This document shows positions 14,301 through 53,825 of a stretch of 64,000 nt of DNA, one piece after another; within the stretch, counting starts at the first letter, position 1, and every line of letters begins with the position of its first letter. Below the pieces are notes generated by a model, which did not search any database, was not told where the DNA came from, and saw only the letters and a program-made list of their open reading frames with translations. This DNA comes from Amoebophrya sp. A120. Its lineage: Eukaryota; Protista; Dinoflagellata. The DNA is taken from the NCBI GenBank assembly GCA_905178155.1, contig CAJINV010000006.1:316398-380397 (forward strand), read 5' to 3'. A program made the position numbers and the translations under genes.

Positions 14301-17300
14301 CAATCCTCTTGCATGTTGCGCATCACAAATTTAAGTTTTTTTCTAGGATAAAGGTGGATGTAGTTGTACTAGAGGTGTTCTTATCAAATGCAAAAATGTC
14401 CGGATGTCTGGAAACTTGTGTTGCTGATACTTGCATTGCAAACTTGCTGCTTGTACGGCATAACAGCATGAGAAATTTCGCGAGGCTTATTCCAGATTCA
14501 TTCGTTTTTAGCATGACAAAGTACCATATCCAGCACGCCAAAAAAACTGGGCAATGGTATTCATGCATTACAGATCTTGTTATCCTTCAAGTCCTGCATC
14601 ACAAATCCAGACCCAGACATATTTGCACTACATATTTCTTCGCCTTTGTACCTCCTGTGTCTGCTGTGGTCGCGGTCGTCGTGTTCAGCACATTCGTTTC
14701 CTTGTTCGTGGTCGAGATATGCATTGCAAAAGTAAAAATATCGCTGTACCAGAACTAGTAGAAGACATCCCATTACAAATTGACTTTAGCACTACAACCT
14801 AGTTGTATTATGCGGATCGATAGCAGAAGCGCCGGCTCTGTAATTATGCACGTGCCACCAATTCCTATGAGTTGACAATACTTTTGCACAGGATATGAGA
14901 TACGAGGTCGTCCACGAAATCCCGGAGGCTGGAGAAATTTTTGTGATGTGTTTTTTCTAAGTATACAGGTGTAGGTTTTATCAATGAAAAAAGCGATACA
15001 TCATGCCGTTCTATGCATCAGTAATTTGAAAAACAATTTAGTAAATCTACCTTCGGTAACGCTTTCATCCGCGCTGCGTAATCTTCTTTCCCTTCCACCA
15101 GTCGCCTTCGATGCCGAAATCTTTCGTCCTTCTCCAATTCTTATCAAATGCAAAAGTGTCTGGGTCTGGAACAAAGCAACTTGCCATCCTGCACCTGAAT
15201 CATGTAAAAATTTGTGTTGCGTGATTACCAAAAGCTGCCCACTTTTGAGCCAATCGAGAGGCGGTTTCTCATGCACGATTAGGCATGATAGAACTCTCAC
15301 AGAATCTGTCATGCTATTTCTTACATACCAGACCTCATGGGTGATGGAAAACCTGCATGACAAGTCTTGCATTCTTCCAGACCCAGACATTTTTGCACTT
15401 GATAATTCTTTCAGCTTTTTCTTCTTCGCTTCTATTATCGACATTGCAAAAATAGTGTCGCACCACTACTACCCGTACGTAGGTTGAACTTGAAGTAAAA
15501 GTATGACAAATTTATCCTTCCGCCAGGATGCAAATTAATCGGAATTTGTAAGTGCGGATTGACCTTTACGCAGAGATTTGTGTTGCATGACTGCAAGTTG
15601 TACTAGTACGAGTTTAATAGCACGATGCTTTTGCAATGGATACCTTCGTCTTTTTCCCCCTCGATTTTCTTCACTCTTTTCTCCACCCTGGCGATGTTCT
15701 TTCGCACGTCGATATCCCGTCCAAAAACATCCACACCCCAGAGTTGTCATGCAATTCTGCATGCCAAAAAGGTTGCTCATGCGGAGCCCTATGAGAAGCA
15801 TTTTCTATGTGTGTTTTGGACTTTGTGATGCTAAAATCAGCATGCTATGCTAGATCTGTGATGCTTCTGAATGAACTAGCTCAATGGGATCACACTACGA
15901 GGACAAACCTGTCATGCCAAACAGCCACAGCTGGTTGATTTGTCTAGCAAATTTCCCATCTTGACTCTGGTGTGGGGACGTTTTTAATCAGGATAGTCGA
16001 ATGGCCGCAAGTGCAAAACCATCTTCGTTGCCTTTTTGTCCGGAAACAATGGGGGTTTCGCGCGTTTTGGGGGCGCGCTGAGCAGCAGATCCGCCTTGGA
16101 CTTTTCTTTGACTTTTTCCTTGTTCGGCTTCAACTGCGGCTCAGGGAGTGCGTTCATAGGAAGAGATAAAGAGGAGCTTGAAGAACCACTGCTGGTGCCA
16201 TTAGTTGTAGAAGTAGCACCTCCATCTCCCGATTGTAGTAGTGGTGAAGAATTCTGTTTCGGTTTCGGACCCTCATCATCGCTTTCCGATCGCTTTTTCA
16301 AGAAGGGCAGCATGAAGGGTTTCTTGGGTTGTGGTTTGGTTGGTTTCGCGTCATCTTTTTTCACCTCCTTGGGGGATTTTTTCGACTTTGGCCGCGAAGA
16401 AGATTTTGGCGGAGAACAAAGTGTCCGCTTTTCGTCTTTTTGTTTATCGTCGTGGTCCAGTGTCGTGGAGGTCGATAAAGGTAGCGGAGACGATGCTGAT
16501 CGTGTAGTAGTCACAGAATTTGTTGTGCCGCTACTCAAGGAAAGTAATTCGTTTTCCTGGTCGGTTGTATTGCGTGCAACTACTGGTACATTCGAAGACA
16601 GTGAAAATACACTGTTGCTGTCGTCCGTGGTCGTGGTCCCAGTACTAGGGGTCGATAACGTTGCTGGTTGTGGGGCCTCCTGTGTTTCTAAAACCGGTAC
16701 TTCTGCACCACTAGCGCCATCATCCTCTTCGGGAATACTGAAGAGGTCCGTCGCCAGCGGGAAGGACATGGACAATGCGTTGGAAAATAAATTACACGAG
16801 GCATCAAAAGGAAAAATCCCCCCTCCCCATATCAAAAGCAAGTGTCTGATGCTGGATTTGCGTACACAAATCAGCTTTGTACTGCAGAGAGGCATTGCGG
16901 GCAGATCTCCAGGCTCGATAGGGGCGTATGTGTCTAGTTGCTCAGCATGGCAAAGGGCTCCCCTTTAGGCTCAACAGCATGACAAATCGCCTCCGTAATG
17001 GGGCGAAAGCTCCTGGCCTTGTCTTCTTGCAAGATGAATATGATTTGTGACCTCAAATCAGCAACACAAATTTTCGGAAAGATACCTTTTCGATATGGGG
17101 AGGGGGGATTTTTCCTCTCAATACGAGGAACTCGAGCTGCTGGATGATGAACTGGACGATGAACCGCTGCTACTGGAACTGGACGAAGAGAAAAAAGAAC
17201 TGAAGGAACTGGAGGAAGCACTACTGTTCGAAGAAGAGCTACTGGAAGAAAAAGAGCTGCTCGAAGAAGAGCTGCTCGAAGAAAAAGAAGAAGAAGAGCT

Positions 17301-20300
17301 GCTCGAAGAGGAGGAAGCTGCTGCACCACCAGATGAAGAACTGCTACTCCCGCCAGTCATGGTCTCTTCAGAATTATTTTCCTCTTTGATGTTGTTCTCC
17401 CCATTGGAAAACAACGAGGACCCGCCAAACGACGCAGCAATTTGTATGGTGTTCTCAACTGTTACATTCTCAACTGTTACATGAATTTGTGATGCAAGAA
17501 TGGCAACAGTCAAACAGGCAAGCTTCCTGCTTTCGCATCACAGATTTGGCACAGATTTAGATGCTATTTAGCCTCTCGGATATTTGTCATGCGAAGCAGC
17601 TTGATCATCTGGCGGCTTAAGGTAGTCTTGCATGACAAATTCATGTAACAGTTGAGAATGTAACGTTTGAGAACTCCATAATTTGTTCCTGCATAGCCAC
17701 GTCGCGATCAAGTTGTTTCTGTTCCTTCTTATGCATTGCAAATATGTCTGGGTACTCTGGAGAAGTGCAAGGTTTGTCATGCTAGGCCAGCACGACTCTT
17801 AAGTCTGTCACGCACGTTAATACCCAAAAACCCTATTTCTCTGTGATGCAGAAACGCAGTTTGTCATGCAGAATAGACATCACTTAGAAGCTCAGAAACT
17901 TGTCATGCTGAGCCATCATCTGTGGCCTCCACATGCTAAGTCACTCAGCATTACAAGTTTCCAGACATCCAGGGATATTTGCATTTGATACTTCTCCAAC
18001 ATGGTTAAAAACTCTTCATTATGCTGTGCAAAAGTATCGTACTCGTATAAATGCAGGTCTTGCATTACAAATTTCTTTATCAAGGCAAATCAGCATTACA
18101 AATTTTATTTCTCATGCTAAGGAAATTTGTAATGCATTTATACGAGTACGATACTTTTGCAGTTCATATTCATGCTCGTCATCCTCCGCGGGTAGAATGC
18201 CAATAATCCCATTTCCAAACCCAACCACAATATCGTTGGCTGAAGTGACCGGCGACGCGATGTTCTCGTCATCTGACAAATTATTATTTTCCTCGTCCTT
18301 GTCATTGCTTATGCTTTTCGGAGGAGGAGGTGACGGAGGAGGTGACAGGGGTCTTTTCGGGTTTTTGTTTCTCACCGCCGTCGGCGTCTTGTCGTTTTTC
18401 ATTTTCTCCTCGTCTTCCCCTCCACTGTCCGCCCGACTTTGCTCTTCCTCGCTATCCGAACCGGAAGAGGAGGTCAAATGGTACCAAGTCGGACTAACAT
18501 CTTCATCGTCACTGAAGTTACAAGTGTCTCGACGGTTCATCATCTTTTCCGGGTCAATCAATTTCCCTTTGCAAATCTTGGCCGCCGGCAGCAGCGGAAA
18601 CTTCTTCTTGTCTAGCCGAATAGTCGTCCCCGTATTGGGCGCGGGGAGCGGAATCTGGATTTCGTAGTCGGTTTTGGACACGTCGTTCGGAATCTTCTCG
18701 TTGTTTTGCAGTTCTAAAAAAAATTTTGCACCAATGCTGTCGCCCATCTCCACCCGGTACACCGGGGCGGGGCCGTCAGAATCGTCTTCGTCGGGCGTTG
18801 GGTAGCAGCGACGAGTACTCAAGTATCAAAAGTAAAAACCCACCCACCCTAGATCAAAATTGAAATCTGTGATGCTGAATTGTGGCCACAAGTCAGCTTT
18901 GTCATGCTAGAAGGGAAGTAGAGATGCGGACTGTAGTGCTGGCTAACGCAGGAACGCCTTACGCCTTCAGCATGACAGGAAGCAACTGGAAATAACGGGA
19001 AACAGCACGACAAATTGCCTCCAAACACGGGAACACCTGCCTCGCTTGGCCTTCTAGCAATATATTTGTGTACTCAAATACAGCAACACAAATTTCGTTT
19101 ATCGATATGGGGAGGGGGGATTTTTCCTCGCAGTATCAACCGCTTTGGCTTCCTTGTCTCCGTATCCCCAATCACGTCCCGGTATCCCGAAGCAATTTGC
19201 CAAAAAGAACTTTTCTCAATTTCTTTACGGACCTTTTTTCGCTTTTGCTCATCCGCAAGCTCTTGCTGGTACTCCTCATCGGTCATGCGGCCGAAGAGCT
19301 GCTCCTGGTCCTGCTCCGGGGAGTTATTGTTGTTGTTGTTCGCGGTGCTGGTGCTGCTGTCATCTCCTTTTTTGTCCGCCACCTCCTGGTTATTTCCATT
19401 GTCACCTCCAGCTGCGCTAGATGAACCTGCCACACGTTCTTGCGCGTTCTCCGCACTTCTCTTGCCCTGCTGCGCCTGCGTCCTCTCCTGCGGCTCCACA
19501 GGAACAACTGGGCGGTCGGTATTTGTTCCGTTATTTTCACCATCTCCCGCAGTGGAAGTCGCTGCTGCAGCCGCTGCTGCTTCTCTCGCTTTCTTCTCCG
19601 CTATATCAAGTGTAAAAATGTCTGGGTCTGGAAGATCAAGATTCTGACACTTGTCATGCACGTTTTGCATGAGTCATGATGTCTGTGATGCATTCCCCAG
19701 CAATACAGATTTTTTGAGGGCTTCTTGATGCGTATTCCGCATGACAAATGCCATCTCAGCGTAGCAAAAATTGCATTTCCTTTGGTACTCATGCAATACA
19801 GATTTTTTTGGAATCCAAATGCAGCATCACAAGTTGCATTCTTCCCGACCCAGACATTTTTACAGTTGATACGCTATCAATTGTGCGAACCTCCCATTCG
19901 GATGGAATCCGAAGTCATCATCGTCATATCAAATGTATTCCACAGAAAAAGACCGACAGGTCATATTTGTAATGCAAAAATAAATACACAGGAAAATCTG
20001 TCATGGGCGAGGCCATAGCATCCTGTTTAGGGCATGCAATACAGATTTTTTTGTCTATTTATTTTTGCATTACAAATATGACCTGTCGGTCTTTTTCTGG
20101 GGGATAAAATGCAAATATGTCTGGGTCTGGAAACTTGTAATGCTGAGTTGTGAAGAATAGTGACTGCTCTGTAATGCACAACCAAGCATGCGAAATTTTT
20201 GCACGGCTAAGTGCTGCGTTTTGTGAATGACAATTTGTGTTTTTGCATGACAAGCAAAAGAGGTCTCTTCTTCAAAACGCATCGCAAACTCTTCAGTCAT

Positions 20301-23300
20301 GCCAGACAAGCATGACAAACCTTGCATCCTTCCAGACCCGGACATATTTGCAATGCATACAACTGAGCGCTTCCTCTTTTCGTCTTCCCCTGGTACCTTA
20401 CCCGCTGCCGCTAATCTCGCTAGATGCTCCGCCTTTAATTGTGCGAGTCTCCCAGGCGGGGTGGGTGGACTGAGGGAACGACGATATCAAAGGTAAAAGT
20501 GTCTGGGTCTGGAAGATTGCCAGGTTTGTCATGCACATTTTGCGTGACTCCTGATCGATCTGTGATATGCATGCCCTAGCATCACAGATTTTGTGAGGGC
20601 TTCCTAATGCCTATACCGCATGACAAATGCTCTTTCCGTGTAGCAAAATTTGGACTCTCTTTGCTGCTCATGCAATACAGATTTTTCTAGAATCCAAAAT
20701 CAGCATGACAAGTTGGATTCTTCCAGACATCCAGGGATTTTTACAGTTGATAGACGACCGTCGTCGTCGTCGGTGTTGGCGTTTTTATTTCGGGGCCGCA
20801 GGGTATCCCAGGAAAAAAGTGTTACAGTTACACATTGGTTGGGGTTTCTGCATCACAAAGTTGCTCGACATGGCAAAGAAAACCTCTGATGCGCAGACTA
20901 TAAGGCAAAACACGAATGAAATGCGGTTTGCAAGCATTTTCTGCATGACAGAGCTTGTCTGTCTTGCTAGTCTCCCACCAGAGTGCGTAACTATAAACAC
21001 TTTTTTCCCACGATACAGGGCTTGCTTCGGAGCTGCGGAGGACCGACCGCGAGTTGCAGACATCGTGGACGTTGTTGCGATCGGAGAAGATAACTGGGAG
21101 CTGCAGGTGCTTCCAACATTAACACCATCGCTGCTACTCCCTGCGGTACCGGTACTAGTTGTGGCAGAAGAAGCTGCTCTCGTACTAGTAGTACAGCTAC
21201 CCCCTTGCAGGCGCTCCTCGGGGTTAGTATTCAAGTTTAGGTTTGGCGGTGTATTGCTATTGTTTTTGTCAGTGTCACCCGCGGCGCGCTTACCTCCCGA
21301 AGAAATAACGGAGGGCGAGTATTGAGAGGAAAAATCCCCCCTCCCCATATCGAAAAGGTATGTTTCCGAAAATTTGCGTTGCTGATTTGAGGTCACAAAT
21401 CACGTCTGTCTTGCAAGAAGACAGGCGCAGAGGCTTCCACACCATTATGGAAGCGATTTGGCATGCTGTTGCGCCTAGGGGGCACCAGCAGGGGGGATTT
21501 TTCCTTTTGATAGCGAGGAATAACGTGATGAAAAACTCGGATTTTTTTCACCGCTGCTACCTGCTGAGGATGCGGTCGACGGCGTAGTTGTCTCCGGTTG
21601 TTGTAAACAAATGTTGTCCGTCGAACTCGAAGTAGTGTTGTCTACTTTTCTGTTGGTATCTTTACTACCACCTGACAGAAGGGAAGAAGATGCAACAGGG
21701 GCATCAGCATTGTTATTGCGGCCTTTACCTCCCCCAGGACCAGGAGTAGCAGAAGTACTGCCCGATAAGTGATCTGGGCTTGCGTTCTTCCTTTCACCAA
21801 GTTCTTGTTGTGGGACAGCAGTAGAACGGCCAGTATTACCACCGCCCGGAGATACCGCCGCGTCAGAAGAACGACCGCCAGTATTTTTACTTGCACTTCC
21901 CCCCAGTCCGCGCGGTCCACATTTTCCCAATCCTTTCTTGCAGACGTACGGTGGCGGCCGCTCGCCGGGCCGTCGCGGTCGCGGCCGGATGGGGGGCATG
22001 GGAGGAAACACGTTGGGGAGAGGCAAAACTTCATCTGTGATCGTACTATCTCTAGCTGCTGTGCCTGGAGTTGATGTTCCCGGTGGCTCTTGCGCGACTT
22101 GCGGCGCAGAAGGGAGAGTCACCGGCTGTACAGGAACTGGTCCAGCAGGAATTTGCTGCGATGCGGCCGGAGATGAGGGCGCAACTTCTACGGGGGTAGG
22201 AACTACTGGTCCAACGGGCTGCTGCGACGCGGCAGGAAAAAGCACCGGCGCCTGCCGGTTGTTTTTCCGTTTCGGGACCACGATGTTGTTGGTCATCAAG
22301 GTGGCAGAAGTTCTTGTTGTGCTGTTGGTACTAGTAGCAGTGGCGGTGTCCGTTGCGCCGTTCTTGTTTTGCCCCGTAGCTCTACTTTCGTCTCCAGAGC
22401 GGCTGGGTATCGTCGACGTCGTGTCCAGTACCGGGGCGACGACAACGTGATTATCGTTTTCGGTAGCCGATGACGTTTTGCTGTCAACCGGCACAACAAA
22501 CGATGCCGCAGTACTATCTTCCGGCGCAGGAGCAGCTGCGTTGAATCGGGAGTAAATATCAGAGCTGGTGGTCGTGGATTTCTTTTCTTCGCTCCCTGCA
22601 CCGGTGGAAGGACCATCTCCACCGCCAGGAGCAGCGCCGCTATCTTCCTGCTGCTTCTCCGAAGCCGAAGGAGGTTCACCAAGGTCGAATAAACCGGTCG
22701 AAGAAGTAACCGCATCTCCCGCCGTACTAGGAGAAGATGAGGCAATTGCAAGAACTGCAACACTCGGCAGTTCCTCTTGTAGCTGACGTTCATTTCCGTC
22801 TACAAGTTCGGGAGGAGCGGTCAAGGGTACAAGGCTCTCATCTCCTGCTGGCGGGTTGAGTAAGCTGTAGTTACAAGTTGTAGGTTTGTCCACCTTGTCG
22901 ACGTTTTTGGTGGTTTTCTTGTCGGTCTTCACTCCATCTTGGTTGGACGAAGTAGTAGTTGTTGGCAACTCATGTCGTGGTTCCACTGACAAGGAAGTTT
23001 CATCTTCCGCCTTAATACTCCGGGGTAACGAAGATTCAGTTTTGCTTTTCTTTTCCGCTAAATCGAAATCGTGATGTTCATCCGCCTGATCGTGTACCGG
23101 TGCTGCAGCATGGGTGGCAACGCACGCGTTATTCTCCTTAAAATCCACAACCCCACCGCGTCCGTCGGAAAGGATGTTCTCTGCTGGTGTTTTTTCCTGA
23201 AAAATCCGAACTGGTTCATCTTCGTCCCCCTCCAACGGTAACAAAGTCTCCTTTTTCTCCACCATTTTTTCCACGCGGGGCTGAAACTGGGTGGGCTGGC

Positions 23301-26009
23301 AAGCTGCAATCTCGTTTTGGTCAAATGAATCCGACTTGACGACGTCCTGGACAAGAACTGGCTCGGGTTCCTTCTTTTCGTTAGAATTTTCCACTTTTTT
23401 GGCAGCGCAGGAGCTTCCACCAGTTGGAATATTACCTGCTTGTTCCAAATGTACCCGGTCCACCTCCTTGTTCTCCTTTTTCTTTTCCTCGACCTTTTTC
23501 GAACTACTTTTGACCCCCTCCAACAGTTGCCTCTCAATTTGCTGCTTCAACTCCGCCTTTGCTTTGCTTACACTTTTATCCTGTGCAAAAGTTTCGTACC
23601 CGTTTCGTATGAATGGAAATGCAAGTCTTGCATTACAAATCTTTTTCTGAAGGTAAATCCGCATTAGAAACTTTATCTCTCATGCTGAGTGAATTTGTAA
23701 TGCATTTATACGAGTAGGAGGACGATACTTTTGCAGTTCATAGCTTTCCTCGTACTCGGCTAGTGTGTAGGTTCTGGACAAGTCGATCCCGCTGGGCACG
23801 TAGGTTAACTTTGCATTTGGCTGAGCTGGTGCGCCGTTAAGTAGATTTGGATGGCGGTCTCGTTTATTTTGACTCGTTTTACTGTCGTTCAACATCTGCA
23901 CACGGTTATTTTCCTTCTGCTCTTCACTCGTCTCCGCGGAGTTGCCCTGGTCGTGCTGCGCCGCAACCGGTGCGGCCAAAGCCTGCGCTTGGCTGAGAAA
24001 CATTGAAAAGTGAAAGAAGCATATCACACCAAAAATAAACGTATAGTGGTTCTCCGATACCGATTCTATGCGTCTCGAACTCGAGCATGTTGGATTTTAT
24101 CAAGTATATCATTCGTTGCTTATGAACTACACAAGATTCTACACAAATAAACATGAAGATTTTCTTGACGATACTATGCGCAAAAAATCTCGTCGTCCAC
24201 AAGTACTACACACATCAAAACCACAGTTCTGTACCGATCCTCCCACTGTCCTGGTCCACGGCGATTCACCTTTCCCTGTTTCACTTTCTGTCGGTTCTGC
24301 TTCAAGACCCGCAAGTGCGCACTGCAATACAGCTCCTCCGGGTTGGAAACGTGCATGAAGTCCTCGTCGTCTGCTGTCAATTCTATAACCGGGGGTTTGC
24401 TGGGAGTTGTGTAATTTTCGTCTTCATCGGAGTTGATTTCTTCTTCCTTTAATATTCCGTCGTCGTGTAGGAAATTTTTGTTTCGGCGTCCCACACGACG
24501 ACCAACAACCGTGTTTTCTAAATCCAAATCCATCTTGTCGGTAGTAGTGGTAAAAGAACCTCCCACGACAGGGACAGCCTGTGAAGAAAATGAGTTGTTC
24601 AGCATTTTTCGTCCGGCGTCCTTATCCCCCCGTTCTTGTTTCATCCGTTGATCATCATTTTCATTCCGGGCTAAAAAAGCCGCTACAAAATCCTCTGCTT
24701 CGGTCGATGTTTTGTGTTGTTTTTTAACACCAGATTTCTCCTCATTGTCGTTGTGGTTGATGCCCATGCCCTGCATCGAATATGCATTGCAAATATCCAC
24801 TCTGGATGTGTATTGGAAATGAACTGCAACTTGTCATGCGAAATCTGGATCCGACGCAAATAACTCTGTGTTGCATGAATACCAAAAGTTGTGGTCCGCT
24901 TTTGAGGACCACTGGTTGAGAGGGAGTTTTTACTTCTCATGCAGGATATTGGGCATGATACAGATCTCACAGAATCTGTCATGCTAGGTCCTGCATGATT
25001 CATCCAGCCCTCGTGGCTGATGGTAATCCTGCATGACAAGTCTTGCATTCTTCTAGACGCTTCTAGGAATTATATTTGCAATGGATACCAAATTCGTCAA
25101 AAGATCGTCGATCGTCATCTCGGTAGCTGCAATTGTAGTTGAATTTTTCCGGTCAACATTTTCTAAATTCTTCTCATCTGTGCTAGTAGTTGTGTTTACA
25201 GTTGTCAAAGTGGTCATCGCTACTTCCGAATAAAAATTGCCCTTCCTCCTCCCGTTCTCATCCAGTTTTCGATTCGTGCGGTTGGTTCTTTCATCGATAT
25301 CCTCAACCATCGGTGGCCGCCGCTTCAGGGAGGTAGTTGAGAGTTGTTGTAGTTGTTGGTCCTCCTCCTGTCCTGCTTGCACCCCCGTTGTATAAAAATT
25401 ACTGTTGTAGTCGTTGTGCAAAAGCGACGCCGCGCTACTATTGCTTTGATGTGATGCCTGCCCCGGGCGGATGAAGCTTGGAATAGAAGAACTCCCTGCA
25501 TCTGTGTTCATCTTCTCGTGTTTGTCACTGGGAAGGTTGCCCTGCGCTCGTCGCAGGTCTAACAAAAACGAAACCAGAGCAGCCTCGGGAGCGAAACTGC
25601 TGGTAGTGCACTTTGTAGGTCTACTACTTCCGGGGTCATGTTTCATCTGTAACACGGCAGGAGCGGGGGATTCTTCGACAGCAGGGGGTTCCTGCTCACC
25701 GCTCGGTTGGTTCTTGGGTTGTTGTTTATTTACTAGGCTGTTTTCAACATCATCTTGGGTAGTAGTTGTTGTTTTTTTGGACGAACTTGACGTGGTCCCA
25801 CGATCATCTCCTGCATTTGCTGGCTGTGTCGTGGACGAGTCGTGTGATACAATCGGTGCTGCAGCCCGGGTGGTCGTTTTCGTTGAATTGCTCAAGGTGG
25901 ATTTGGGGTTGGCGGCTTTACTAAGGGTAATATTGTCGGTCTGATCCTCTACATCCAGCAGGCATGGCGGATTGGGTACCGCTGCCGGCTTCGCCGGAGA
26001 CTCAGGCAT
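11323..26009 (-). CDS. Large Ser/Thr/Pro-rich hypothetical protein split by about 24 introners and at least 2 GT-AG introns
   Basis: Starts MPESPAKP at 26009. Frame restored by removing element plus 5 nt at tested junctions: RYSS|PSVISS (21320), QAL|RPRN (20804), KRSV|DDDF (19927), TTS|DNLTIS (12866), KRIR|KSIDIF (11976), NAEM|EAFSD (11408) ending WTEG-TGA. Not all junctions tested, so it could be more than one gene or extend further 3'. Confidence 0.6.
11408..11669. mobile_element. Introner family A
   Basis: TAT..ATA TIR; DR CCATT. Confidence 0.9.
11976..12119. mobile_element. Introner family B
   Basis: DR TCGGA; frame restored. Confidence 0.9.
12866..13015. mobile_element. Introner family B
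   Basis: DR AGAGG; frame restored. Confidence 0.9.
13246..13737. mobile_element. Introner family D, enlarged
   Basis: TATGAAAGTGCACAAAA...TTTTGTGCACTCTCATA; no DR; about twice the usual length. Confidence 0.6.
13753..14052. mobile_element. Introner family G
   Basis: TATTACAATGAAAAATGCCCC TIR; DR GCCAC. Confidence 0.9.
14151..14350. mobile_element. Introner family J
   Basis: DR AAGGT; similar to 53025-53252. Confidence 0.85.
14382..14634. mobile_element. Introner family A
   Basis: DR GTTCT/TTTCT (4/5). Confidence 0.85.
14718..14895. mobile_element. Introner family B (diverged)
   Basis: DR CGAGA/TGAGA (4/5). Confidence 0.8.
14929..15050 (-). other. Probable canonical GT-AG intron
   Basis: Minus strand AAG|GTAGAT...TTTCTCCAG|; AT-rich; frame not tested. 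Confidence 0.6.
15142..15404. mobile_element. Introner family A
   Basis: DR ATTCT. Confidence 0.9.
15433..15642. mobile_element. Introner family B (diverged)
   Basis: DR GCTTC/CCTTC (4/5). Confidence 0.75.
15713..15995. mobile_element. Introner family F
   Basis: DR GTCGA. Confidence 0.9.
16802..17123. mobile_element. Introner family C (left end CAT)
   Basis: DR CGAGG; internal orientation opposite to 21320 and 33410 copies. Confidence 0.9.
17445..17680. mobile_element. Introner family H
   Basis: DR ATTTG. Confidence 0.9.
17730..17990. mobile_element. Introner family A
   Basis: DR CTTCT. Confidence 0.9.
18020..18168. mobile_element. Introner family B
   Basis: DR TTCAT. Confidence 0.9.
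18824..19135. mobile_element. Introner family C (diverged, right end GTA)
   Basis: DR TCAAG/TCAAC (4/5). Confidence 0.8.
19604..19871. mobile_element. Introner family A
   Basis: DR CGCTA. Confidence 0.9.
19927..20359. mobile_element. Introner family A carrying nested family K element
   Basis: TATCAAATG interrupted at 19936, resumes AAATGCAAATATGTCTGGG at 20107; outer DR poor but frame restored. Confidence 0.85.
19936..20106. mobile_element. Introner family K nested in TIR of an A element
   Basis: About 50-bp TIR TATTCCACAGAAAAAGACCGACAGGTCATATTTGTAATGCAAAAATAAATA; DR AAATG. Confidence 0.9.
20485..20752. mobile_element. Introner family A
   Basis: DR GACGA; frame restored. Confidence 0.9.
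20804..21015. mobile_element. Introner family E
   Basis: DR CAGGG; frame restored. Confidence 0.9.
21320..21512. mobile_element. Introner family C, internally deleted
   Basis: DR GCGAG; empty site with single GCGAG near 2959. Confidence 0.9.
23577..23742. mobile_element. Introner family B
   Basis: DR ACTTT/GCTTT (4/5). Confidence 0.85.
23993..24060 (-). other. Probable canonical GT-AG intron
   Basis: Minus strand GTATCG...TGTTTCTCAG with pyrimidine tract; frame not tested. Confidence 0.55.
24781..25087. mobile_element. Introner family A (diverged)
   Basis: TATGCATTGCAAATAT...ATATTTGCAATGGATA; DR 3/5. Confidence 0.8.
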
Positions 26010-26321
26010 GGTTTGGGTTTTCTGGGTTGAATTTTTCCGGTAGTTTTATTTTGTCGCAATTCTATGTTTGACTCTGATGTCTCTTTTACTTTCTACAAAT
26101 AAGGAACAAAACCCGATGAAACATGTGAAATAAAGTTTGTATTCGACCGTTACCAGTCGTGGCACGCAAGAACAGATCGACGCAACATGGGTAATTATCA
26201 TTATGCGAGCGTGCCGGCACGCTGATGATTTATATTTAATAATTTGTAGTATGTATGTTTTTTTTCATCAGGAAATAAGCCGTCCGTGATTTCTTTCACA
26301 TAGGCCCAGAAACTGCTGGAC

Positions 26322-33409: not shown

Positions 33410-33735
33410 TATCAAAAGGAAAAATCCCCCTTCCCCATATCGAAAGGGTATGTTTCCGAAAATTTGTGTTGCTGATTTGAGGTCACAAATCGCATTTGTC
33501 TTGCAAGAAGACAAGGGCAGAAGCTTCCGCCCCATTATGGAAGCGATTTGTCATGCTGTTCTTGGGCCTAAAGGTGAGCCGTTTGCCGTGCTGCACAGCT
33601 AGACCCATACGCCCCTACCTAGCCTGGGGGTCTGGCCGCCGTGCCTTTCTGCAATACCAATCTGATTTGTGTACGCAAATTCAGCATCACAGATTTCCTT
33701 TTTGATATGGGGAGGGGGGATTTTTCCTTTCGATA
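33410..33735. mobile_element. Introner family C downstream of CFAP57 stop (probable 3' UTR)
   Basis: DR TCTTC; absent from paralogous flank near 52475. Confidence 0.9.
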
Positions 33736-33890
33736 TCTTCCGGAGGGAAGCGGAAGTGGAGCACAAACTCTGAAAAAAAGTCAGTACAAAGATGTTGATG
33801 TGTTTCTTTTGTTAGCCCGATTGTTAATACACTGTATTGTAATTTCATAACATTTTACTTGTTAGTTGCCTGTGCCTCCTCCGACCGCTA

Positions 33891-42800: not shown

Positions 42801-45800
42801 TTTGTACATAGCGTTTCCAACAAAATCAAAAAGATGAAAAACTACCGCTTGGGTCGTTCTTTGGAATAGATGTGATTACGGGAGGACATGACGATCGTTT
42901 GCGAGGGGATGTTCGAGCGTTATTTTTTCTAGTACTCGAAATGCATAAAGAAACCGAAAACAGTCTGGTGGTCCTGCATTGAAGAATGAGTCACTCCAAA
43001 AAATATTTTCTTCGCAAATTTGCCAAACAAGAAGCATGTCATGATTACAGTGACAGCACAAGTATATAGCAAATATCCAAATCCTGCTCCAACTGTTGTA
43101 TTGTTTCGTAGAACCATAAAGTATAGTACGTCCTTACCGACGCCCTGTTGTTTTTCCTCCTGACACAGTGCACGAAAAATTCCTCGTAACTCGCGCTTTT
43201 GCTGAGTGGAAACGGGTAACTCCAAAGCGTGCCGCTTGTTGTCGTCGCAAACAACGTGGTTCCCCCGTATGTCGTATCCTGTGCAAAAGCATCGCACTCG
43301 CATTGCAATCATGCATTACAAATCTTTTTCTTGAGGCAAGTCAGCACTACAAATGTTCTTTCTCATGCTGAGGAAATATATTTGTCATGCATTTCTACGA
43401 GTACGATACTTTTGCAATTCATATTTCGCCGCCGCGTTGGGTAAGGAGTCCAAATATCAAATGCAAATATGTCTGGGTCTGGAAGAATGCAACTTGTGAT
43501 GCTGCGTTTGGATGTCTAGAAAATTTGTGTTGCATGACCAGCAAAAGGAATCTAATTTTTGCTACGCGGAGAGGGCATTTGTCCTCATGCGGAACAGGCA
43601 TCAAGAATCCCTTCAAAAAATTGTGATGCCAGGGCATGCATTACAGACATCATCGCTCACGCAAACCATGCATGACAAGTCTCAGAATCTTCCAGACCCA
43701 GACACTTTTGCATTTGATACCAAATCCCGACTTGCCATCAACCAGGCCGAGTCTCGCTGTTCGTCACGGGACAGAGCGAGTAATTTCCTATCAAACGTGA
43801 CAGAGCAAATCGACTCTTTCGCGGCGTCGGGTAATTCCAACTTGCAGGCTAGCTCCACGTTCGCGAGTAGTTCGGGATTCGTGGCGGACTCGGAATTCGC
43901 TATTGGCGTCAAATACAGGTCGTACAACCTACCACAGTATCGACATTGCAAAAGTGCATCAGGCATGACTAGTCTCCCTCTCGAGCTGAACGTGAACTCG
44001 CATTAGCATTACAAATTCCATGATTTTGATCTTGATTTGTCATGCTACGAAAAATTTCTCATGTAGTTGCGCTTGACATACTTACGGTGCTTGATGTTCT
44101 CTTGCAATGCGTACGTACGTTTTCCCCAGCGATTCCTTCGTATTCAGCGTTTTGAAAGATAGCGCCACGACCCACCGTATCAAATGCAAAAATGTCTGGG
44201 TCTGGGAAAATTCAGACTTGTCATGCATATTTCGCATGCCCCATGACGTCAGGAATGCAGGACCTAGCATGACAGGTCCTGCGAAGTCTCTATCATGCCA
44301 ATCCTGCATGAGAAACTCCCGCTCATGTTGGTCAAAAAAGGACAACTTTTGGTGATCACGCAACACAGATTTTTGTGTGACCCACGGGACGCATCACAAG
44401 TTCCATCCTCCCAGACGTCCAGGGATTTTTGCATTTGATACATCGCCTCCGGTTCGTCGTCACGTCCCCGTCGAAGGCGATGGTCGCGTGGAAATTTTTA
44501 TCCTGTGCAAAAGTATTAATTGCGTTTATGCATTACAAATCTTTTTGCTAAAAAGGCAAATCCGCAGTACAAATTCAATCTGTAAAAATGCTAGGTCAAT
44601 TTGTAATGCAACAATTACACTAGTACGATACTTTTGCAGTTCATAATTTTCGTACAGGGAAAGTAACTGCGACCGTGCGCCCATGGATTTCTTGTCCTCT
44701 TCTATCCTGTGCAAAAGTATCGTGGTCGTAGTAATTGCATTTCTGCATTACAAATCTCTTTTTCAAGGTAAATCAGCATTACAAATCAAATTTGTAATGC
44801 TGGCCTAATTTGTCATGCAATTTATACTAGTACGATGCTTTTGCATTGCATATCTTCCGTTAGCAAACAATTTATCAACTGCAAATATCCCTGGATGCCT
44901 GGAAGATAATTGGGAGACTTGTCATGCAGGTTTTCCATGAGGACCCAGGAGGTCTGACGTGCAGGACATAGCATGACAGATTCTGATGTAAGATCTTTCT
45001 CATGCCTAGCCCGCATGAGGAACTTTTGCTCGCAAATTGATGGTCAACAAAAGTGGACATCAACTTTTGGTAATCACGCAACACAGATTTTTTCACAGTC
45101 CAGACTTCGCATGACAAGTTGCATCCTTCCAGACCCAGATGATATATTTGCAGTTGATACAATTCCCGTCGGTACAGTCTTTGTGCGGTTCGAGGTAATA
45201 CTCGGCGATTTTGTGGTAGTTTGACATGTCCCACACGTAGAACGACCCGTCGATGCCGACCGTCGCCATGGTAAGCGCCTGAAAGTCGAAACTCACGTCC
45301 GCGATGGGGGAGGTGTGCTTCTTGATGGTAACCTGGAAAAGTTTTTATGATGATCTTCATTTGGCAGCTACTTCTATTGAGTTTTTTGCATGACAGCGCA
45401 ACGTTATTATCTAGCTTCCCGCATCACAAGTTTTTACTTTTATTGTTCCACTTGTTCTCTATCAAAACCATATGCATATTTTTTTATACCAGTTTGTTCA
45501 GGTTCAGCGTCTCCAGCACGGTTAAGAACTTCCCATAAATCACCACCAAATAGTTCCCATTGGTCGGACTGTACACCACTTTTTTCAAATTTGCAAACCG
45601 GAGTTCTGCGTACTGCTGAATTTTGTTGGCGAGCAAGTATGGAGAGGAAAAAGTTTGTCACAGTCACGAACTTGCAGGTTTGGCATTACAAATTTTTTTT
45701 AGCATCGCAGCTTTTCCGTGTATTGCAGAAGCACTAGGGGAATCCCTTGAGAAGTTTTGGTGCTGTGATGCATTTTTACGCGTAGCAGGAAGCTTTGTAT

Positions 45801-48800
45801 TGCAAAGATGCGCAAGAGTGATCGTGACGAACTTTTTTTGTTTGATAGCAAGTGGAACATGCGCAAGGTTCCGTCCGCGAAGGCTACCGCGCAGCTGTAG
45901 CCGTCCGGGTGGATCGCGCATTGGATCGGCGCTTTTTCGCTGGTGAAAAACGTGCTCATATTGAGAGGAAAAATCCCCCCTCCCCATATCGAAACGTTAT
46001 AATCTTTCCGAAAATTTGTCTTGCTGATTTGAGACCACAAATCGCGTCTGTCTTGCAAGAAGACATTCATCCACAGGCTCTGCCGCATTATGCAGGCGGT
46101 TTGTGATGCTGTTGGGCCTACAGCATAGACGTTTCTCATCGACTAAGCGCCTAGGCGAAAAGCTTTCTACTCAGGCTTAGCAGGAGCCTGCTGGTGTCCT
46201 CTACTGCAAGACAAACCTGATTCGTATAGTACGCAAATCCAGCATCAGAAACTTGCTTTTGATATGGGGAGCGGGTATTTTTCCTTGTGATAGCTCAGTT
46301 CCAATTCCAGCGTCTCGTAGTTGTACAGCCTCAAAGAGTATCAAATGCAAATATGTCTGAATCTGGAAACTTGTAAATGCAAATCAGCGAACACTAAGCA
46401 CTCTGTAATGCACCGCCAAGCATGACAGGTTTTTTCGTCGCGCTGTGTAGTTGCGTATTCCGCATGACAGGCACAGGGAGCTGCTTGTGGCCACGCAACA
46501 CAGAGTCCAGAGTCATGCCAGACAAGCATGACAACTCTCGCAGTCTTCCAGGCCCAGACATATTTGCATTTGATAAAGAGCTGTCGTCCTTCGAACCGGC
46601 GCACGTTAAGAACAGTATGACAGTGCACAACTCGTCCCCCTCCCCCTCATTTGTTTAGCATGAACGGCAATACAGGCATCAGCAAGAATGCCGGTTCAGC
46701 ATGACAAATTCAAGTACACTGGAGTGTAGTACTATTTTGGGCTTCCAGAGCTTGTCATGCATGAGAGTGACAGGAGGGACACCAGTCTAGAGTTGGCGTT
46801 TTGCATGGGAAATGAGAACGAGGGAGTAGAGTTATGCACTCTGATAAACAGCGGTCGCAGTTCCGAATTCGCAGAGGACACAGACAACACCGGTCCAAAG
46901 TGCGCGGCGAGGGATATGGCGAAGTTCTCAGACGGGTTACATTCCCAACACTTACATGAATTTGTCATGCAGAATCACAATCACGCTTCTCACGATAAAG
47001 CTTCTTCGCATGACAAGTTTTCGACAAGCTAAACAGCATTACAACAGTCTGTGCCAAATCTGTAATGCAAGACGTGCAAGGGCAAGGCCCCCCCTTTTAC
47101 TTTTGCGTGTAGTTTTTGCATCACAAATTCATCATGTAACAGTTGAGAATGTAACGTTTGAGAACGCCATAAGGGATCGGTTGGCCGGGAAGGTGAGTTT
47201 CTCCTTCGCCAGATACAATTCCGCTAGATTCACGTAGCAAAAATCCCCATCCGCAAAGGCTTATGCATTGCAAAAGCATTGTAATCGCAGTAATTGCAAG
47301 CAGGCATGACAAATGTTGAACTTGAGCTGAATTTGCATATACAAATTGATGCTTTCATGCTAAGCAAATTGAAATTTGAAACTGCAAATTTTTATACCAT
47401 TTACTACTCGTACGACCACACTTTTGCGATGTATAAGGCCAACACCACTCCGGCCTGGCTGTTTGTGCCGGAGGTGTTTGAAGACGACTGCTATGAGAGT
47501 GCACAAGAACTCCCCCTCCCCCTCATTTGGATGGCAACATCCGTAGCAACACAAACGCTAGCAAAGATGCAGCTTTTGCATCACAAATTTGCGACCGATT
47601 GTTCTAGTGGTGACTCGGCTCCTTTCGGAACCTGTCATGCATAGTAGTGCCAAGAGGCAAAAGGTGGATTCGGTGTTTTGCACGACAAATGCGTTGGAGG
47701 AAGAGCTCCTGTGCACGACTCTCATAACTGCTGTTGGCTTTGCACAATGCCGGCGTTGGCAGTGTCGATGCCGTGCTGCTGCAAAATCTCCTTTCCGAAA
47801 AACAGTTCGTCGTCAACGGCAATGTCGATGGAAACCACGTTCGACTTCCTATGCATTGCAAATATGTCTGGGTCTGGAAAGTTCAAGTTGCAACTGGTGA
47901 TGCTGGATTTGGATTCCACAAGAAATCTGTATTGCCTGAACAGCAAAAGAGGTTCAGTTTTTGCCATGACGACAGGGCATTTCTGATGCGGTGTGGGCAT
48001 CAGGAAGCCCTCATAAAATCTGTGCTGCTAGGGCATGCATCACAGACATCAGAAGTCATGCAAAATGCGCATGACAAACCTTGCATCCTTCCAGACATCC
48101 AAGGATATTTGCAATGGATACTTCCTGCCGGTGTACAAGTTCCGGACGAACCGGTAGCTGTGCGAGTCCAGCCGCTCCCATATCAAAATGAAAAATCTCC
48201 CCTCCCCATGTTTCCGAAGATTTGTGTTGCTGATTTGAGGCCACAAATCACATGCGTTTTGCAAGACGACAAGGGCAGAAGCTTCGGCCCCATTATGGAA
48301 CCGATTTGTCATGCTGTCGGGCTTAAAGGGGAGCCGGTTGCCATGCTGAACAACTAGACCCATACGCCCCTGCCTAGCCTGGGGATCTGGCCTCGATGCC
48401 TTCCTGCAATACAAAGCTGATTTGTGTACACAAATCCAGCATCAGAAATTTCGTTTTGATATGGGGAGGGGGGATTTTTCCTTGCAATATCCCAAATCCC
48501 CAAGTACCCATCGCTCCCCGCAATGATAAACCCCTTCTGGAAGGTGCAGATCGCCAATGGTTTCACCTCTTCGGAGATCGTATCGTCAAAACAATCCTGC
48601 AGAACCTCTACGATTTTCAGTGTCTGAGAATCCACCAGGTAAATCTCCTGCTTCTGGCTGTTGACCGCCAGAATTTCCTTCTGCTTCGCCCACAACTTCT
48701 GCAGCAGCTGCAGACGCGGTTTTTCCTTGGAATTTATCGAAAGGAAAAATCCTCCCTCCCCATATTGAACCGGAAACCTGCTCTGTTGCTGGATTTGTGT

Positions 48801-51800
48801 ACACAAATCAGGTTTGTCTTGCTGGAGAGGACTGCAGACACATTTCAAGTCTGAGCCGAGAGGTATTGGCCTAGGCGCTTAGCGTGACAGACGTCTACGC
48901 TGTAGGAGCAAGAGCATGACAAACCGCCGGCAGAAAGCGGCGGAGCCTGTGGGGTTGCCTTCATGCAACACAGAGACCATTTGTGGTCACAAATCAGCAA
49001 CACAAATTTGCGAAAACGTACGTTGTCAATATGGGGAGGGGGATTTTTCCTTTTGATAGAGTTATTCGGAGCAGCGGGCTCCGTGTCGGAGGTGGTGTTA
49101 TTGTTGCCTCCAGAGGCGTATCAACTGTAAAAATGTCTGGGTCTGGAAATTTGTGATGCTGTGTGGCATATCATGAGGAGGCCACAATTGCTGGCTCGGC
49201 ATGACAAGTTTCTGAGCTTCTAGGTGTTGCCTATTCTGCATGACAAACTACGTTTCTGCATGACAGAAAAGTGGGGCTCTTTGGTAATGTGCATGACAGA
49301 CTTAAGAGTCATGCCAGACAAGCATGACAAACTTGCATTTTTCCAGACCCAGACATTTTTACATTTGATAAGGCGTTTTTCGCGGGCATCGGTATAGGGC
49401 TCTCAAACGTTATATTCTCGAACTGTTGCTGCATGGATTTGTGATGCAAGAATGGCAGAAGGGAACAAATACAAAGGTCGGATCTTGCAACTTTTACATT
49501 ACAACTTCGGCACAGATTTTTGATGTCCCCATGCTGGTAATACCCTTTTTGAAATTTGTCATGCGAAGTAGATTGGCCGTGTGGATGTTGATGTTCATTT
49601 TGCAAGACAAATTCATGTAGCAGTTGAGAAGGTAAAACCGATTTGTGAACGCCATAATCGGCCCGGTCCATGTGTAGGTGGAGAAGATGGTGGTTTCCGG
49701 ATTGATTTTGTCTCCCTCGAAGTCAGGAAACGGCCGGAGGTCGCGGGACGTGGTGTTGTACCTGTGATGGCGAGAGTAGCTAGTTTGTCATGCAGAAACC
49801 AGAAAAAGAGATTCATTTTGTCATGCAGAACCCTGGAAAAAAAACACATTTTGTTATGCAGAAACCAGAAAAAGAAATCCATTTACATTTTTTCATGCCG
49901 AACACCGGATAATAAAAAATTTCTCAAAAATAAGTAGTACTTGTAAAGCTTCAAGTAGCCCCCATTCCCGGACAGCAGCAACAAGTTCGAATCGTAGGGC
50001 GCGAACGCATCAAGTGCAAATATCGATGTGGGTGCTCTGGAAAGTTGCATGCAATTTGTCATGGTGGTCCTTGCATGCCAGACGCTTGTTCCTTTGTACA
50101 ACCCGCAGAACAGCATGACATCACGTGCTCCTCGGCAACTTACAAGAAGTTCTAGTGTGTTTACTGCATGACAAACTGAGTTATTTTTTCACAGCATGTG
50201 CATGACAAAAAAACGGGCCATGATCGTATCTATGCATCACACATCCTTGCTGTCCTTCCAATTTCGCATCACAAATCCAGACCCAGATCGATATTTGCCG
50301 TTGATAGAACGTGACTTTCTGCAACTCCAACGGCAAGGTTTGCTCGCACAGCACCGTCAACGAGTAATTCACCGTGTTCAACTATCCCACGAAAAAAGTG
50401 TTACAACAGTTACACACCCGTAGTGAATTGAGCAACACAAATTTCTCTGCATGACAGAGAAAACTTGTAATGCAGAAATCCTACTGGAAAACACCTATGA
50501 AACGAGGCTCCACCTATGCATATCCGGCATGACAGAGCTTGTCTGTCTTGCTTGGCCTGCAACACTACAATGTGTAACTGTAACACTTTTCTCTTGTTGC
50601 GATATCAACTCACAAAGCTGCAGAATCGTCCCCGTTCGCGCACTGAAAAACGTCGTGGGGTCTTCATACTGTGGGGTCAAAAGCGCTTATAACAGTGCAC
50701 AGCTCCCCCTCATTTGTACTCTAGCATGAACGGCAATACAAGCATCAGCAAGAATCAGAATGCCGGTTTTGCATGACAAAAAATTTGCACTGGATTGTAA
50801 TTCTATTCGGGCAGCTACCAGAACTTGTCATGCACAATAGTGACAGGAGGGAAAGCGTGGTTTTGGTGTTTTGCATGAGAAATGAGAACGAGGAGGAGTT
50901 CTTTTGCACGGCCATAGCGCTACCCGGGTGTGGTTGGCGTCGATGGCACAGCTCGTGTAGCCGCTTCTTTTCACATTCAACCCGAGGTTGTCGGTTGTGG
51001 TTCCCTGGAAACTGTTGTTACTCGTCAAGTTGTAAATCGTCACTTGGCCGCCGTTGGAGTTCGCGCTGGTACTTGAGCTGCTGCTGGTGCTTGTCGTGGT
51101 TTCGCAGGAGACGATGAAAGTTTTATCTAACGAAACCGCAAAACTGGTGATCGCCTCCACGCTCGTGCTCGCCGTGTATTACAGTGAAAAATGCCCCCCA
51201 CCGCTAAAAGTAAAATTGCAAAAAATTGTGATGCAAAGCTTCCAAATGAAAACTTTTTGTCATGCATGAAAGGAGTATGAATCTTTCTGATGCAGAGTGG
51301 AGGCGTGTATCGCATCGCTTGCATGACAAGCGCCGCTTTTGCTGGCGTATTTTGCAATACAAATTTTTGCTATTCACGATTGGAAACCTGTGATGCTGAT
51401 AGATGCAAGAGGGCGAAGGTTTCATTTGGAAAGGTTTGCAACACAAATGCTTCCAAGTTCGGGGGTGGGGGCATTTTTCATTGTAATACCGTGGTCGCTT
51501 GCTTCAGGAAGTAGCTGTCCGTTATCAAATGTAAAAATGTCTGGGTCAGGGGGATTTCTAGATTTGTCATGCATATTTTCCATGACCCATGATGTCTGTC
51601 ATGCATGCCTTAGCATCACAGATTTTTAGAGCGCTTTGTGATGCCTCTACAGCATGAGAAACGACCTCTCCGCGTCGCACAAACTGGAGTCCTCTTGCTG
51701 GTCATGCAATACAAATTTTTTCAGTATCCAGAGACAGCATCACAAGTTTAGAATGTTCCAGACCCAGACATTTTTACATTTGATATCCGTGTTGGTATAG

Positions 51801-53024: not shown

Positions 53025-53252
53025 TATCCAAAGAAAAAGATTGTAGCTGTGACTTTCATCTTGCTGGAACAGCATGACAAATCCGTCTGGCATGGGACGA
53101 GCAACGACCTGTTATGCGCAGATAGTACGCGAAAAGGAAAACGCCACTGGCATTGAATGGGCGCTACTATGCATGCCCAGCATGACAGACGCACTCATCT
53201 TGCAGGTTGCGCATCACAAAGTTACAGGCTAACAATGTTTTTTTCTTCGATA
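53025..53252. mobile_element. Introner family J
   Basis: DR TAGTC; empty site (TAATC) at 41069. Confidence 0.92.
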
Positions 53253-53292
53253 TAGTCTCGCCTCGTACGCGTACCTCTGCTGGTCTAGTTTC

Positions 53293-53548: not shown

Positions 53549-53664
53549 GTTTCTGCATGCTGTCCAACTCGATTTGCTTAATCTCGTGGTTCAACTTCTC
53601 GACCTTATCTTCCAGTTTTACCAAGTCCTGTTTCTCAATCAAGCAAATCTCGTCCCCCTTCGGC

Positions 53665-53785: not shown

Positions 53786-53825
53786 GCGTCTCCAGGACGG
53801 TTAAGAACTTCCCATAAATCACCAC

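What the first reader, a model, noticed from the sequence alone, without database searches (positions are those of the whole stretch)
16802..51488. Removal is orientation-independent; RNA splicing or ciliate-IES-like DNA excision?
Seen: same-family copies lie in opposite orientation within minus-strand genes (C: 16802 vs 21320 and 48181 vs 48735; G: 13753 vs 51177). Known: spliceosomal introns are polar, whereas ciliate IESs are excised from DNA leaving one copy of a flanking direct repeat (pointer). Inference: either a symmetric non-spliceosomal RNA excision or a stage-specific DNA elimination. The sequence alone cannot distinguish them.
Basis: partly seen in the sequence, partly recalled or inferred. 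Interest (0 to 1): 0.78.

Follow-up and report, generated by a model that had tools for sequence, protein, structure and literature searches.

The report
Two-way transposon introns, one fixed cut
The genes of this marine parasite are packed with already-described transposon-like inserts that sit in either direction, stay in the DNA and are missing from the RNA, so they are likely spliced out of the RNA at one fixed offset rather than cut out of the DNA as in ciliates.

Summary
The window is from Amoebophrya sp. A120; the repeats are its published introner elements (PMC7789003). In detail: the three named pairs are inverted, and 8 of 10 families occur both ways round. RNA reads and contigs lack elements of both orientations, plus exactly one 5-bp target duplication, while a DNA-like run keeps them. 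DNA elimination is unlikely (about 3%). Either-way insertion does not exclude the spliceosome: it is known for Polarella and Aureococcus introners, and these elements have the same ends both ways. Added here: a deposited 1534-aa protein matches my 44-element model without error only if each intron starts one base before TAT and ends four bases after ATA. The donor then reads N-T-A-Y, like this genome's GTA donors, with no GT-AG needed (2 of 82). Removal survives a 2-of-5 duplication. Orientation is biased about 2:1. Weak points: one site fixes the upper bound of the cut; polarity by transcript versus by element is unresolved; a test for selected RNA pairing was negative; 13753, 16802 and 21320 rest on reading frame only.

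The parts
13753..14052 (.). family G element, 300 bp, perfect 5-bp duplication, inside gene B
   Evidence: removal inferred from reading frame only
16802..17123 (.). family C element, 322 bp, perfect 5-bp duplication; transcript-3' end has lost one base of the terminal triplet
   Evidence: removal inferred from reading frame only
21320..21512 (.). family C element, internally shortened (193 bp), opposite to 16802, same gene
   Evidence: removal inferred from reading frame only
48181..48489 (.). family C element, 309 bp, minority orientation
   Evidence: RNA-like contig piece ends at 48490; absent from deposited protein
48735..49058 (.). family C element, 324 bp, opposite to 48181; duplication 4 of 5, upstream copy kept at the mismatch
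51177..51488 (.). family G element, 312 bp, opposite to 13753; removed with exactly 5 extra bases
33891..51943 (-). gene A: 1534-aa WD40/beta-propeller plus coiled-coil protein, 44 elements and 7 GT-AG introns; identical to deposited A120 protein P0001 at cut register 4
11323..24003 (-). gene B: inferred 2317-aa low-complexity protein, 23 elements (one with a nested element) and one GT-AG intron; start and the GT-AG intron chosen by frame
   Evidence: no deposited protein found
42040..42326 (.). family F element, minority orientation, duplication 3 of 5; the only site that bounds the cut from above (hybrid of both copies in the deposited protein)
   Evidence: bridged by a DNA-like contig
43275..43423 (.). 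family E element, duplication 4 of 5; bounds the cut at 4 or more bases from the upstream copy
43938..44113 (.). element with only 2 of 5 duplication matches, still removed as length plus 5
40562..40700 (-). canonical GT-AG intron, joined in RNA reads
49762..49940 (-). canonical GT-AG intron, kept in the DNA-like run, skipped in the RNA-like contig; carries the repeated GCA-NN-ACA motif at 32 and 65 nt from its end
24781..25087 (.). family A element in the minority orientation with an informative 3-of-5 duplication; the untested site that would separate transcript polarity from element polarity
   Evidence: no deposited protein found
19927..20359 (.). element with a second element (19936-20106) nested 9 bp inside one end
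52443..54161 (.). rearranged partial duplicate of gene A giving six empty paralogous sites

Best explanation
These inserts are the A120 introner elements, which stay in the DNA, sit either way round and are missing from the RNA; they are likely spliced from pre-mRNA at one fixed offset, probably by a relaxed spliceosome. Step 1 (shown): a short element with TAT...ATA ends inserts into DNA and duplicates 5 bp of nearly any sequence; six paralogous empty sites hold one copy. Step 2 (shown for gene A): the transcript loses the element plus 5 bases in either orientation. Step 3 (shown at few sites, inferred as a rule): the intron starts one base before TAT and ends four bases after ATA, so 4 duplication bases come from the upstream copy and 1 from the downstream copy. 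Step 4 (inferred): the 5' site then reads N-T-A-Y, the local donor G-T-A-Y with its first base freed; the 3' site has no fixed sequence and is set by distance from the element end. Because both ends carry the same motif, a polar machine meets the same signals in either orientation. Step 5 (inferred, untested): the catalyst is the U2/U6 spliceosome, which in this strain reportedly lacks U1; what recognises the ends (a protein on the end motif, or the hairpin) is open.
For: RNA joints skip length plus 5 (39882: 278 nt, 484 reads; 41096: 265 nt, 397 reads; 39546: 275 nt, 429 reads) with depth 0 in the DNA-like run X1. Two RNA-like contigs account exactly for 15 more elements (424 of 424, 585 of 585, 867+181, 1620+179). 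X1 contigs bridge six elements and one canonical intron unjoined. Model versus deposited protein: 6, 4, 3, 1, 0, 1 differences for registers 0 to 5; those gene models were built from transcript alignments (PMC7789003 section 25). Upstream copy kept at all 6 mismatched duplications readable in RNA. Transcript-5' end TA in 82 of 82, third base T80/C2; last two bases at the 3' end altered in 5 of 82. All 8 modelled canonical donors start GTA. G at duplication position 4 (last exon base and last intron base) in 32 of 82 against 26% background (p 0.012 uncorrected), 18 of 44 and 10 of 23 in the two orientations. Published top A120 boundary classes are all NT-NN and top A25 classes all TT-NN, where the repeat starts TTA. 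Nearly all spliceosomal proteins and U2, U4, U5, U6 reported for A120.
Against: Only one site (42040) excludes register 5, and it comes from an annotation, not from reads I saw. All six RNA-read mismatches, and the five broken 3' ends, are in the majority or a matching orientation, so a cut polar to the element (4 one way, 1 the other) is not excluded by them. No sign that the RNA hairpin is selected on the transcribed strand: G-U versus A-C mismatches 56 vs 53, sense more stable in 42 and antisense in 38, and end positions 4-8 pair in only 40-58 of 82. Only 2 of 82 read GT-AG in any register, far from any described spliceosomal substrate. No lariat or branch point was seen. X9 looks like few amplified molecules (one 5' end with an adapter-like tail, recognised from memory). 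X1 is not on record as DNA, some of its joints were not counted, contigs drop rare variants, and its life stage is not given. The published boundary table depends on aligner placement and lists CT-AC as a class, so it is not independent proof.
Confidence: 0.62

Rival explanations
1. Removal is at the RNA level but not by the spliceosome: a dedicated endonuclease and ligase, or another new machine, cuts at fixed distances from the two element ends, as proposed for euglenid nonconventional introns.
For: No terminal dinucleotide rule (2 of 82 GT-AG); elements fold into long end-to-end hairpins (z -6.6 and -3.7); U1 not found in this strain; euglenid precedent with circles and no lariat (review PMC11282704 section 6).
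Against: The 1-base and 4-base offsets place T and A exactly where the canonical donors have them; no strand-specific selection on pairing; euglenid pyrimidine|purine borders are not seen.
Confidence: 0.33
2. Stage-specific DNA elimination like ciliate IES excision: elements are cut from the DNA of an intracellular stage, leaving one repeat copy.
For: Symmetric ends starting TAY, one repeat's worth left, either orientation, exact frame restoration; motif spacing of 31-33 bp in 65 of 161 neighbours suits a DNA-binding protein; intracellular-stage DNA was not examined.
Against: DNA-like run keeps the elements and shows no joined form at 4 of 4 listed RNA joints; no separate germline in the described cycle, trophont to sporont to dinospores; the terminal TA is removed, not kept as in Paramecium; removal is exact with 2 of 5 or 3 of 5 repeat matches and gives a hybrid of both copies at 42040; canonical introns are lost in the same molecules.
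Confidence: 0.03
3. Only one orientation is removed well; the other is leaky and tolerated.
For: Orientation bias 44:23 by family and 43:19 by element; two families are 5:0.
Against: 10 minority-orientation elements lie in gene A's frame and none can be kept; 41096 (minority) is joined in 397 reads beside 39882 (majority) in 484; the bias could come from insertion, as a similar bias is reported in Polarella.
Confidence: 0.1

Closest known systems
Amoebophrya A120 introner elements (Farhat et al. 2021, PMC7789003)
   Same: Same organism, inverted repeats starting TAT with an A run, 3-5 nt direct repeats, many families, RNA-supported removal, non-canonical borders.
   Different: Nothing in kind. 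That paper leaves the border position unknown (Fig. 3 legend) and, in the main-text and supplement passages searched, does not mention element orientation or excision. The fixed register, orientation bias, repeat-independent removal and 31-33 bp motif arrays are additions here.
Either-orientation introners of Polarella glacialis and Aureococcus anophagefferens (bioRxiv 2020.10.14.339549)
   Same: DNA-transposon origin, target duplication, introns made in both orientations with a bias to one.
   Different: Those recruit GT/GC/GA and AG sites from the element or from a constrained target; here the target is nearly random and 80 of 82 have no GT-AG reading.
Fritillaria borealis MITE-derived non-canonical introns (via review PMC11282704)
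   Same: Inverted repeats, target duplications, non-canonical ends, removal credited to an adapted spliceosome.
   Different: Fritillaria has preferred AG-AC and AG-AT ends; here neither terminal base is fixed.
Euglenid nonconventional introns (via review PMC11282704)
   Same: End-to-end hairpin, duplication-like repeats at borders, unknown catalyst.
   Different: Pyrimidine|purine borders and released circles are reported there; borders here do not follow that rule and circles were not tested.
Paramecium IESs (PMC6143343)
   Same: Transposon origin, inverted end consensus starting TAY, precise frame restoration.
   Different: Excised from DNA of a somatic nucleus, one TA kept, 93% under 150 bp; here the TA goes with the element, DNA keeps it, most are 145-335 bp, and no nuclear dimorphism is described.

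Membership tests
A120 introner elements | Inverted repeat starting TAT and holding an A run | tested here: met
   logos: TAT at 1-3, A in 53-72 of 82 at positions 11-15, both ends
A120 introner elements | 3-5 nt direct repeat at the borders | tested here: met
   5 of 5 in 61 of 82 (partly selected on this), 39 of 67 unselected end pairs
A120 introner elements | Repeated families | tested here: met
   10 families of 2-18 members in the window
A120 introner elements | Absent from transcripts | tested here: met
   for gene A; gene B not examined in RNA
Non-autonomous TIR DNA transposon (MITE-like) | Empty sites with one copy of the target | tested here: met
   six paralogous empty sites
Non-autonomous TIR DNA transposon (MITE-like) | Cognate transposase elsewhere in the genome | not testable with these tools
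   no genome held; PMC12130899 reports an A120 family with an integrase-like putative transposase, link to these families untested
Canonical U2 spliceosomal intron | GT/GC-AG ends | tested here: not met
   2 of 82 in any register
Canonical U2 spliceosomal intron | Donor core +2 T, +3 A as in local canonical introns | tested here: met
   82 of 82 at register 4; 8 of 8 canonical donors GTA
Canonical U2 spliceosomal intron | Cut polar to the transcript | tested here: inconclusive
   upstream copy kept 6 of 6, but no informative flipped element read
Canonical U2 spliceosomal intron | Branch point and lariat | not testable with these tools
   no lariat data; the GCA-NN-ACA motif lies on both strands and is not shown to be a branch site
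Ciliate IES | Element-free DNA in a somatic genome | tested here: not met
   one DNA-like run keeps the elements; other stages not available
Ciliate IES | One terminal TA kept (Paramecium type) | tested here: not met
   TAT and ATA both removed; variable 5 bp kept
Ciliate IES | Matching pointer repeats guide the join (spirotrich type; definition recalled) | tested here: not met
   exact removal with 2 of 5 (43938) and 3 of 5 (40219, 42040) matches
Ciliate IES | Separate germline and somatic nuclei | not testable with these tools
   life cycle passage in PMC6176090 describes one nuclear line
Euglenid nonconventional intron | Ends brought together by a hairpin | tested here: inconclusive
   folds exist but no strand-specific selection on pairing
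Euglenid nonconventional intron | Pyrimidine|purine borders | tested here: not met
   duplication positions 4 and 5 are A21 C13 G32 T16 and A21 C24 G19 T18
Euglenid nonconventional intron | Full-length circles, no lariat | not tested
   no back-joint among the 15 joints shown of about 2000; not a test

The most novel reading that the evidence does not exclude
A120 has a splicing machine that needs neither terminal G nor AG nor a matching repeat: it reads only the two ends of a DNA transposon, cuts 1 base before and 4 bases after them, and so undoes any insertion in either direction without a trace. The same end-and-array signal (GCA-NN-ACA every 31-33 bp, also found in canonical introns) may serve both the transposase on DNA and the splicing step. 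This would be either a U1-free spliceosome with a ruler-set 3' site or a new RNA cut-and-join enzyme.
Probability: 0.45. Interest if true: 0.8.

Novelty: already known. Interest (0 to 1): 0.45.

Why it matters
The elements are published, and either-way introners are known elsewhere, so the finding as posed is not new and its DNA-elimination branch is unlikely. But how A120 removes tens of thousands of introns without GT-AG is an open question, and the original paper leaves the border position unknown. Mismatched target duplications give a cheap genome-wide way to read the exact cut from existing RNA-seq. If the register found here (1 before, 4 after) holds in both orientations, the apparent diversity of borders reduces to one rule, N-T-A at the donor, which would also cover strain A25 (repeats starting TTA), and it defines a sequence-independent, scarless splicing cassette.

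Tried and rejected
G-U versus A-C test for selected RNA pairing: no excess (45 vs 34, 56 vs 53, 80 vs 82 for 10, 15, 20 end positions), so a hairpin ruler is not supported. Stop-codon test of registers: all six registers keep both frames open, uninformative; frame fixes the extra bases only modulo 3 (2 and 8 also work). Searches for deposited proteins of gene B (targets up to 2000 aa only) and of the gene holding 24781 found nothing, which left the flipped-element test open. No whole genome is held. Base skew in elements: none. The GCA-NN-ACA motif as branch point: considered, not adopted, since it lies on both strands and is antisense only in one canonical intron. Several canonical acceptors were first mis-chosen and corrected by frame. 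Elements 53665 (duplicate of 41485) and 59673 (composite) were dropped from the 84 catalogued before counts; fragments at 733-1074, 38255, 54162, 54367 and 57298 were not catalogued. Element 43938 and the 179-nt intron were identified after the contig arithmetic left those remainders. Literature: five searches listed no paper on orientation, exact cut register or DNA elimination in Amoebophrya; subscription journals are mostly not held. Term look-ups in PMC6221363 found nothing and PMC13326754, PMC12235515, PMC12005148, PMC11453091, PMC9860276 added little. Two look-ups of earlier scan findings returned nothing.
Full report
Identity. An exon of the window matches, at 100% identity, a protein named Amoebophrya sp. 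A120. The repeats fit the introner elements described for that strain: inverted repeats starting TAT, 3-5 nt direct repeats, non-canonical borders supported by RNA-seq, U1 not found, mechanism unknown (PMC7789003 sections 10, 11, 12, 16 read whole).

Anatomy. I catalogued 84 elements and analysed 82 after dropping one duplicate and one composite. Each runs TAT...ATA, 109-433 bp, with a 5-bp duplication outside the ends: 5 of 5 in 61 of 82 (partly selected on this), and in 39 of 67 end pairs chosen on inverted-repeat score alone, against 4 of 1977 random pairings. The duplicated bases are close to random. A rearranged partial copy of gene A at about 52440-54160 lacks three elements of the original, and the original lacks three of the copy; each empty site has one copy of the 5 bases. 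So they are DNA insertions with a 5-bp stagger.

Observation. The three named pairs are inverted, and 8 of 10 families occur both ways. Cutting out each element plus 5 bases gives a 2317-aa frame with 23 elements, including 13753, 16802 and 21320, and a 1534-aa gene with 44 elements, including 48181, 48735 and 51177. In 23 of 23 and 41 of 41 elements tested, keeping the element or cutting 0, 1, 3, 4, 6 or 7 extra bases loses the stop-to-stop frame; 2 and 8 mostly keep it. Orientation is not even: the motif-rich strand is antisense in 44 and sense in 23 of 67 family-assigned elements (p 0.014), and 43 against 19 with 20 ties per element. All genes examined are on one strand, so gene strand and chromosome strand cannot be separated.

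RNA versus DNA. On 39000-54150 raw RNA run X9 joins across 39546, 39882 and 41096 (429, 484, 397 reads) and across a canonical intron; each element skip equals length plus 5. Two contigs of RNA-like run X4 account exactly for 15 more elements, among them family A in both orientations within one contig, 51177 and 48735; one of the 15 (43938) and one canonical intron were located after the arithmetic left their lengths over. Run X1 keeps a canonical intron and so behaves as DNA; it has depth 0 at the four RNA joints and six of its listed pieces' spans bridge whole elements (39546, 41821, 42040, 47262, 49393, 51961). Limits: X1 is not on record as DNA, some of its joints were not counted, contigs drop rare variants, only 15 of about 2000 joints and 16 of about 20700 pieces were shown, and X9 looks like few amplified molecules. 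No RNA was laid on gene B.

Where the cut falls. With a perfect duplication the junction is ambiguous; with a mismatched one it is not. Let k be the number of duplication bases taken from the transcript-upstream copy. RNA boundaries give k at least 4 (43275, 43938), 3 (48735, 40219), 2 (39546) and 1 (51961). My model of gene A differs from the deposited protein at 6, 4, 3, 1, 0 and 1 residues for k 0 to 5; those gene models were built from transcript alignments (section 25). So a single k must be 4, with 42040 alone excluding 5. The intron then begins N-T-A-T. All 8 modelled canonical donors begin GTA; the elements' transcript-5' TA is intact in 82 of 82, both third-base variants are C as in GTAC donors, and the last two bases at the other end are altered in 5 of 82. 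Duplication position 4, which is both last exon base and last intron base, is G in 32 of 82 (p 0.012 uncorrected), at like rates in both orientations. The published top boundary classes are NT-NN for A120 and TT-NN for A25, whose repeats start TTA; this agrees but depends on aligner placement. Only 2 of 82 can be read GT-AG. Element 43938 is removed exactly with 2 of 5 matches, so the join does not need the repeat.

Against my reading. The informative RNA sites and the broken 3' ends are all in the majority or a matching orientation; 42040 is flipped but allows k from 1 to 4. A cut polar to the element is therefore not excluded; the test site 24781 could not be read. The elements fold end to end, yet pairing shows no bias to the transcribed strand and positions 4-8 pair poorly, so the ends look more like sequence motifs than a selected stem. 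No lariat or circle data exist here.

Polarity of the spliceosome does not forbid two-way elements: passages of bioRxiv 2020.10.14.339549 describe Polarella classes, and Aureococcus, making introns in either orientation with a bias to one. DNA elimination needs a soma; the described cycle is a uninucleate trophont whose nuclear divisions yield the dinospores (PMC6176090 passages), so excisions would be inherited and the elements lost (inference). Paramecium IESs keep one TA (PMC6143343 passages); here it leaves with the element. I put RNA-level removal at about 95%, split about 62% spliceosome and 33% other, and DNA elimination at about 3%.

A further feature. The motif GCA-[TA]-[GCT]-ACA occurs 334 times, 298 inside elements, on both strands, spaced 31-33 bp in 65 of 161 neighbours; it is also found 7 times in 1140 bp of short canonical introns against 3 in 11758 bp of exon (first-pass borders). 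Three DNA turns suggests transposase sites (inference); its presence in canonical introns is unexplained.

What was read. PMC7789003: outline, sections 10, 11, 12, 16, 20, 25, term passages, and supplement text passages (figures not visible; Figs S14-S25 may bear on the cut position and snRNAs). PMC11282704: section 6 and passages. Passages only: PMC12130899, PMC9860276, PMC12005148, PMC6176090, PMC11453091, PMC13326754, PMC6143343, PMC12235515, bioRxiv 2020.10.14.339549 (its supplements are closed). PMC6221363: no term found. The original Fritillaria, Aureococcus and euglenid-circle papers were not read. Searches listed no paper on orientation, exact register or DNA elimination in Amoebophrya. 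The name CFAP57 for gene A is recalled and untested; Pfam gives WD40 propellers and a coiled coil, with only WD40 passing its cut-off. Family letters are working labels.

Verdict. A real feature of a published system. The DNA-excision idea is unlikely; the open question is the RNA machine, and the fixed register makes it testable with data that already exist. Interest 0.45.

Noticed in passing
window 19927-20359 and 59673-60842: Both nested insertions (19936-20106, 60557-60818) hit the outer element within its terminal repeat, not its interior; precise removal of the inner one would rebuild the outer end.
   Followed up: partly
window genes A and B versus 4600-11300, 26100-33300, 54500-57300: Elements are dense in coding sequence (44 in 4.6 kb, 23 in 7 kb) but none was catalogued in 2548 bp of canonical introns or in three long element-free stretches, and only 2 lie in about 21 kb of element DNA: target choice or decay.
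   Followed up: partly
window 52443-54161: Rearranged DNA-level partial duplicate of gene A (85-98% identical pieces) that keeps a canonical intron and has gained three elements of its own.
   Followed up: partly
window 59600-60890: A composite element with about 770 bp of GC-rich insert is flanked by a repeat of about 50 bp of exon; cutting it plus 5 bases keeps the frame with a duplicated 17-residue peptide, although no 5-bp duplication matches.
   Followed up: no
window 37516-38766: A 1251-bp canonical intron holds three copies of its own acceptor region, an element fragment, 22-bp tandem repeats and 15 motif copies; only the last acceptor keeps the frame and matches the deposited protein.
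   Followed up: partly
window 51961-52069: Short element upstream of gene A's start codon that also appears removed in the RNA-like contig, so removal is not limited to coding sequence.
   Followed up: partly
window 13246-13503 and 13569-13737: Decayed elements with no strict motif copy and weak duplications that must still be removed for the frame of gene B.
   Followed up: partly
window 7571-8541: Tandem arrays of 21-bp and 40-bp units with inverted copies, unrelated to the elements.
   Followed up: no
window 24003-24240: Gene B and the upstream frame 24177-26009 may be one gene joined by a canonical intron; not tested.
   Followed up: no
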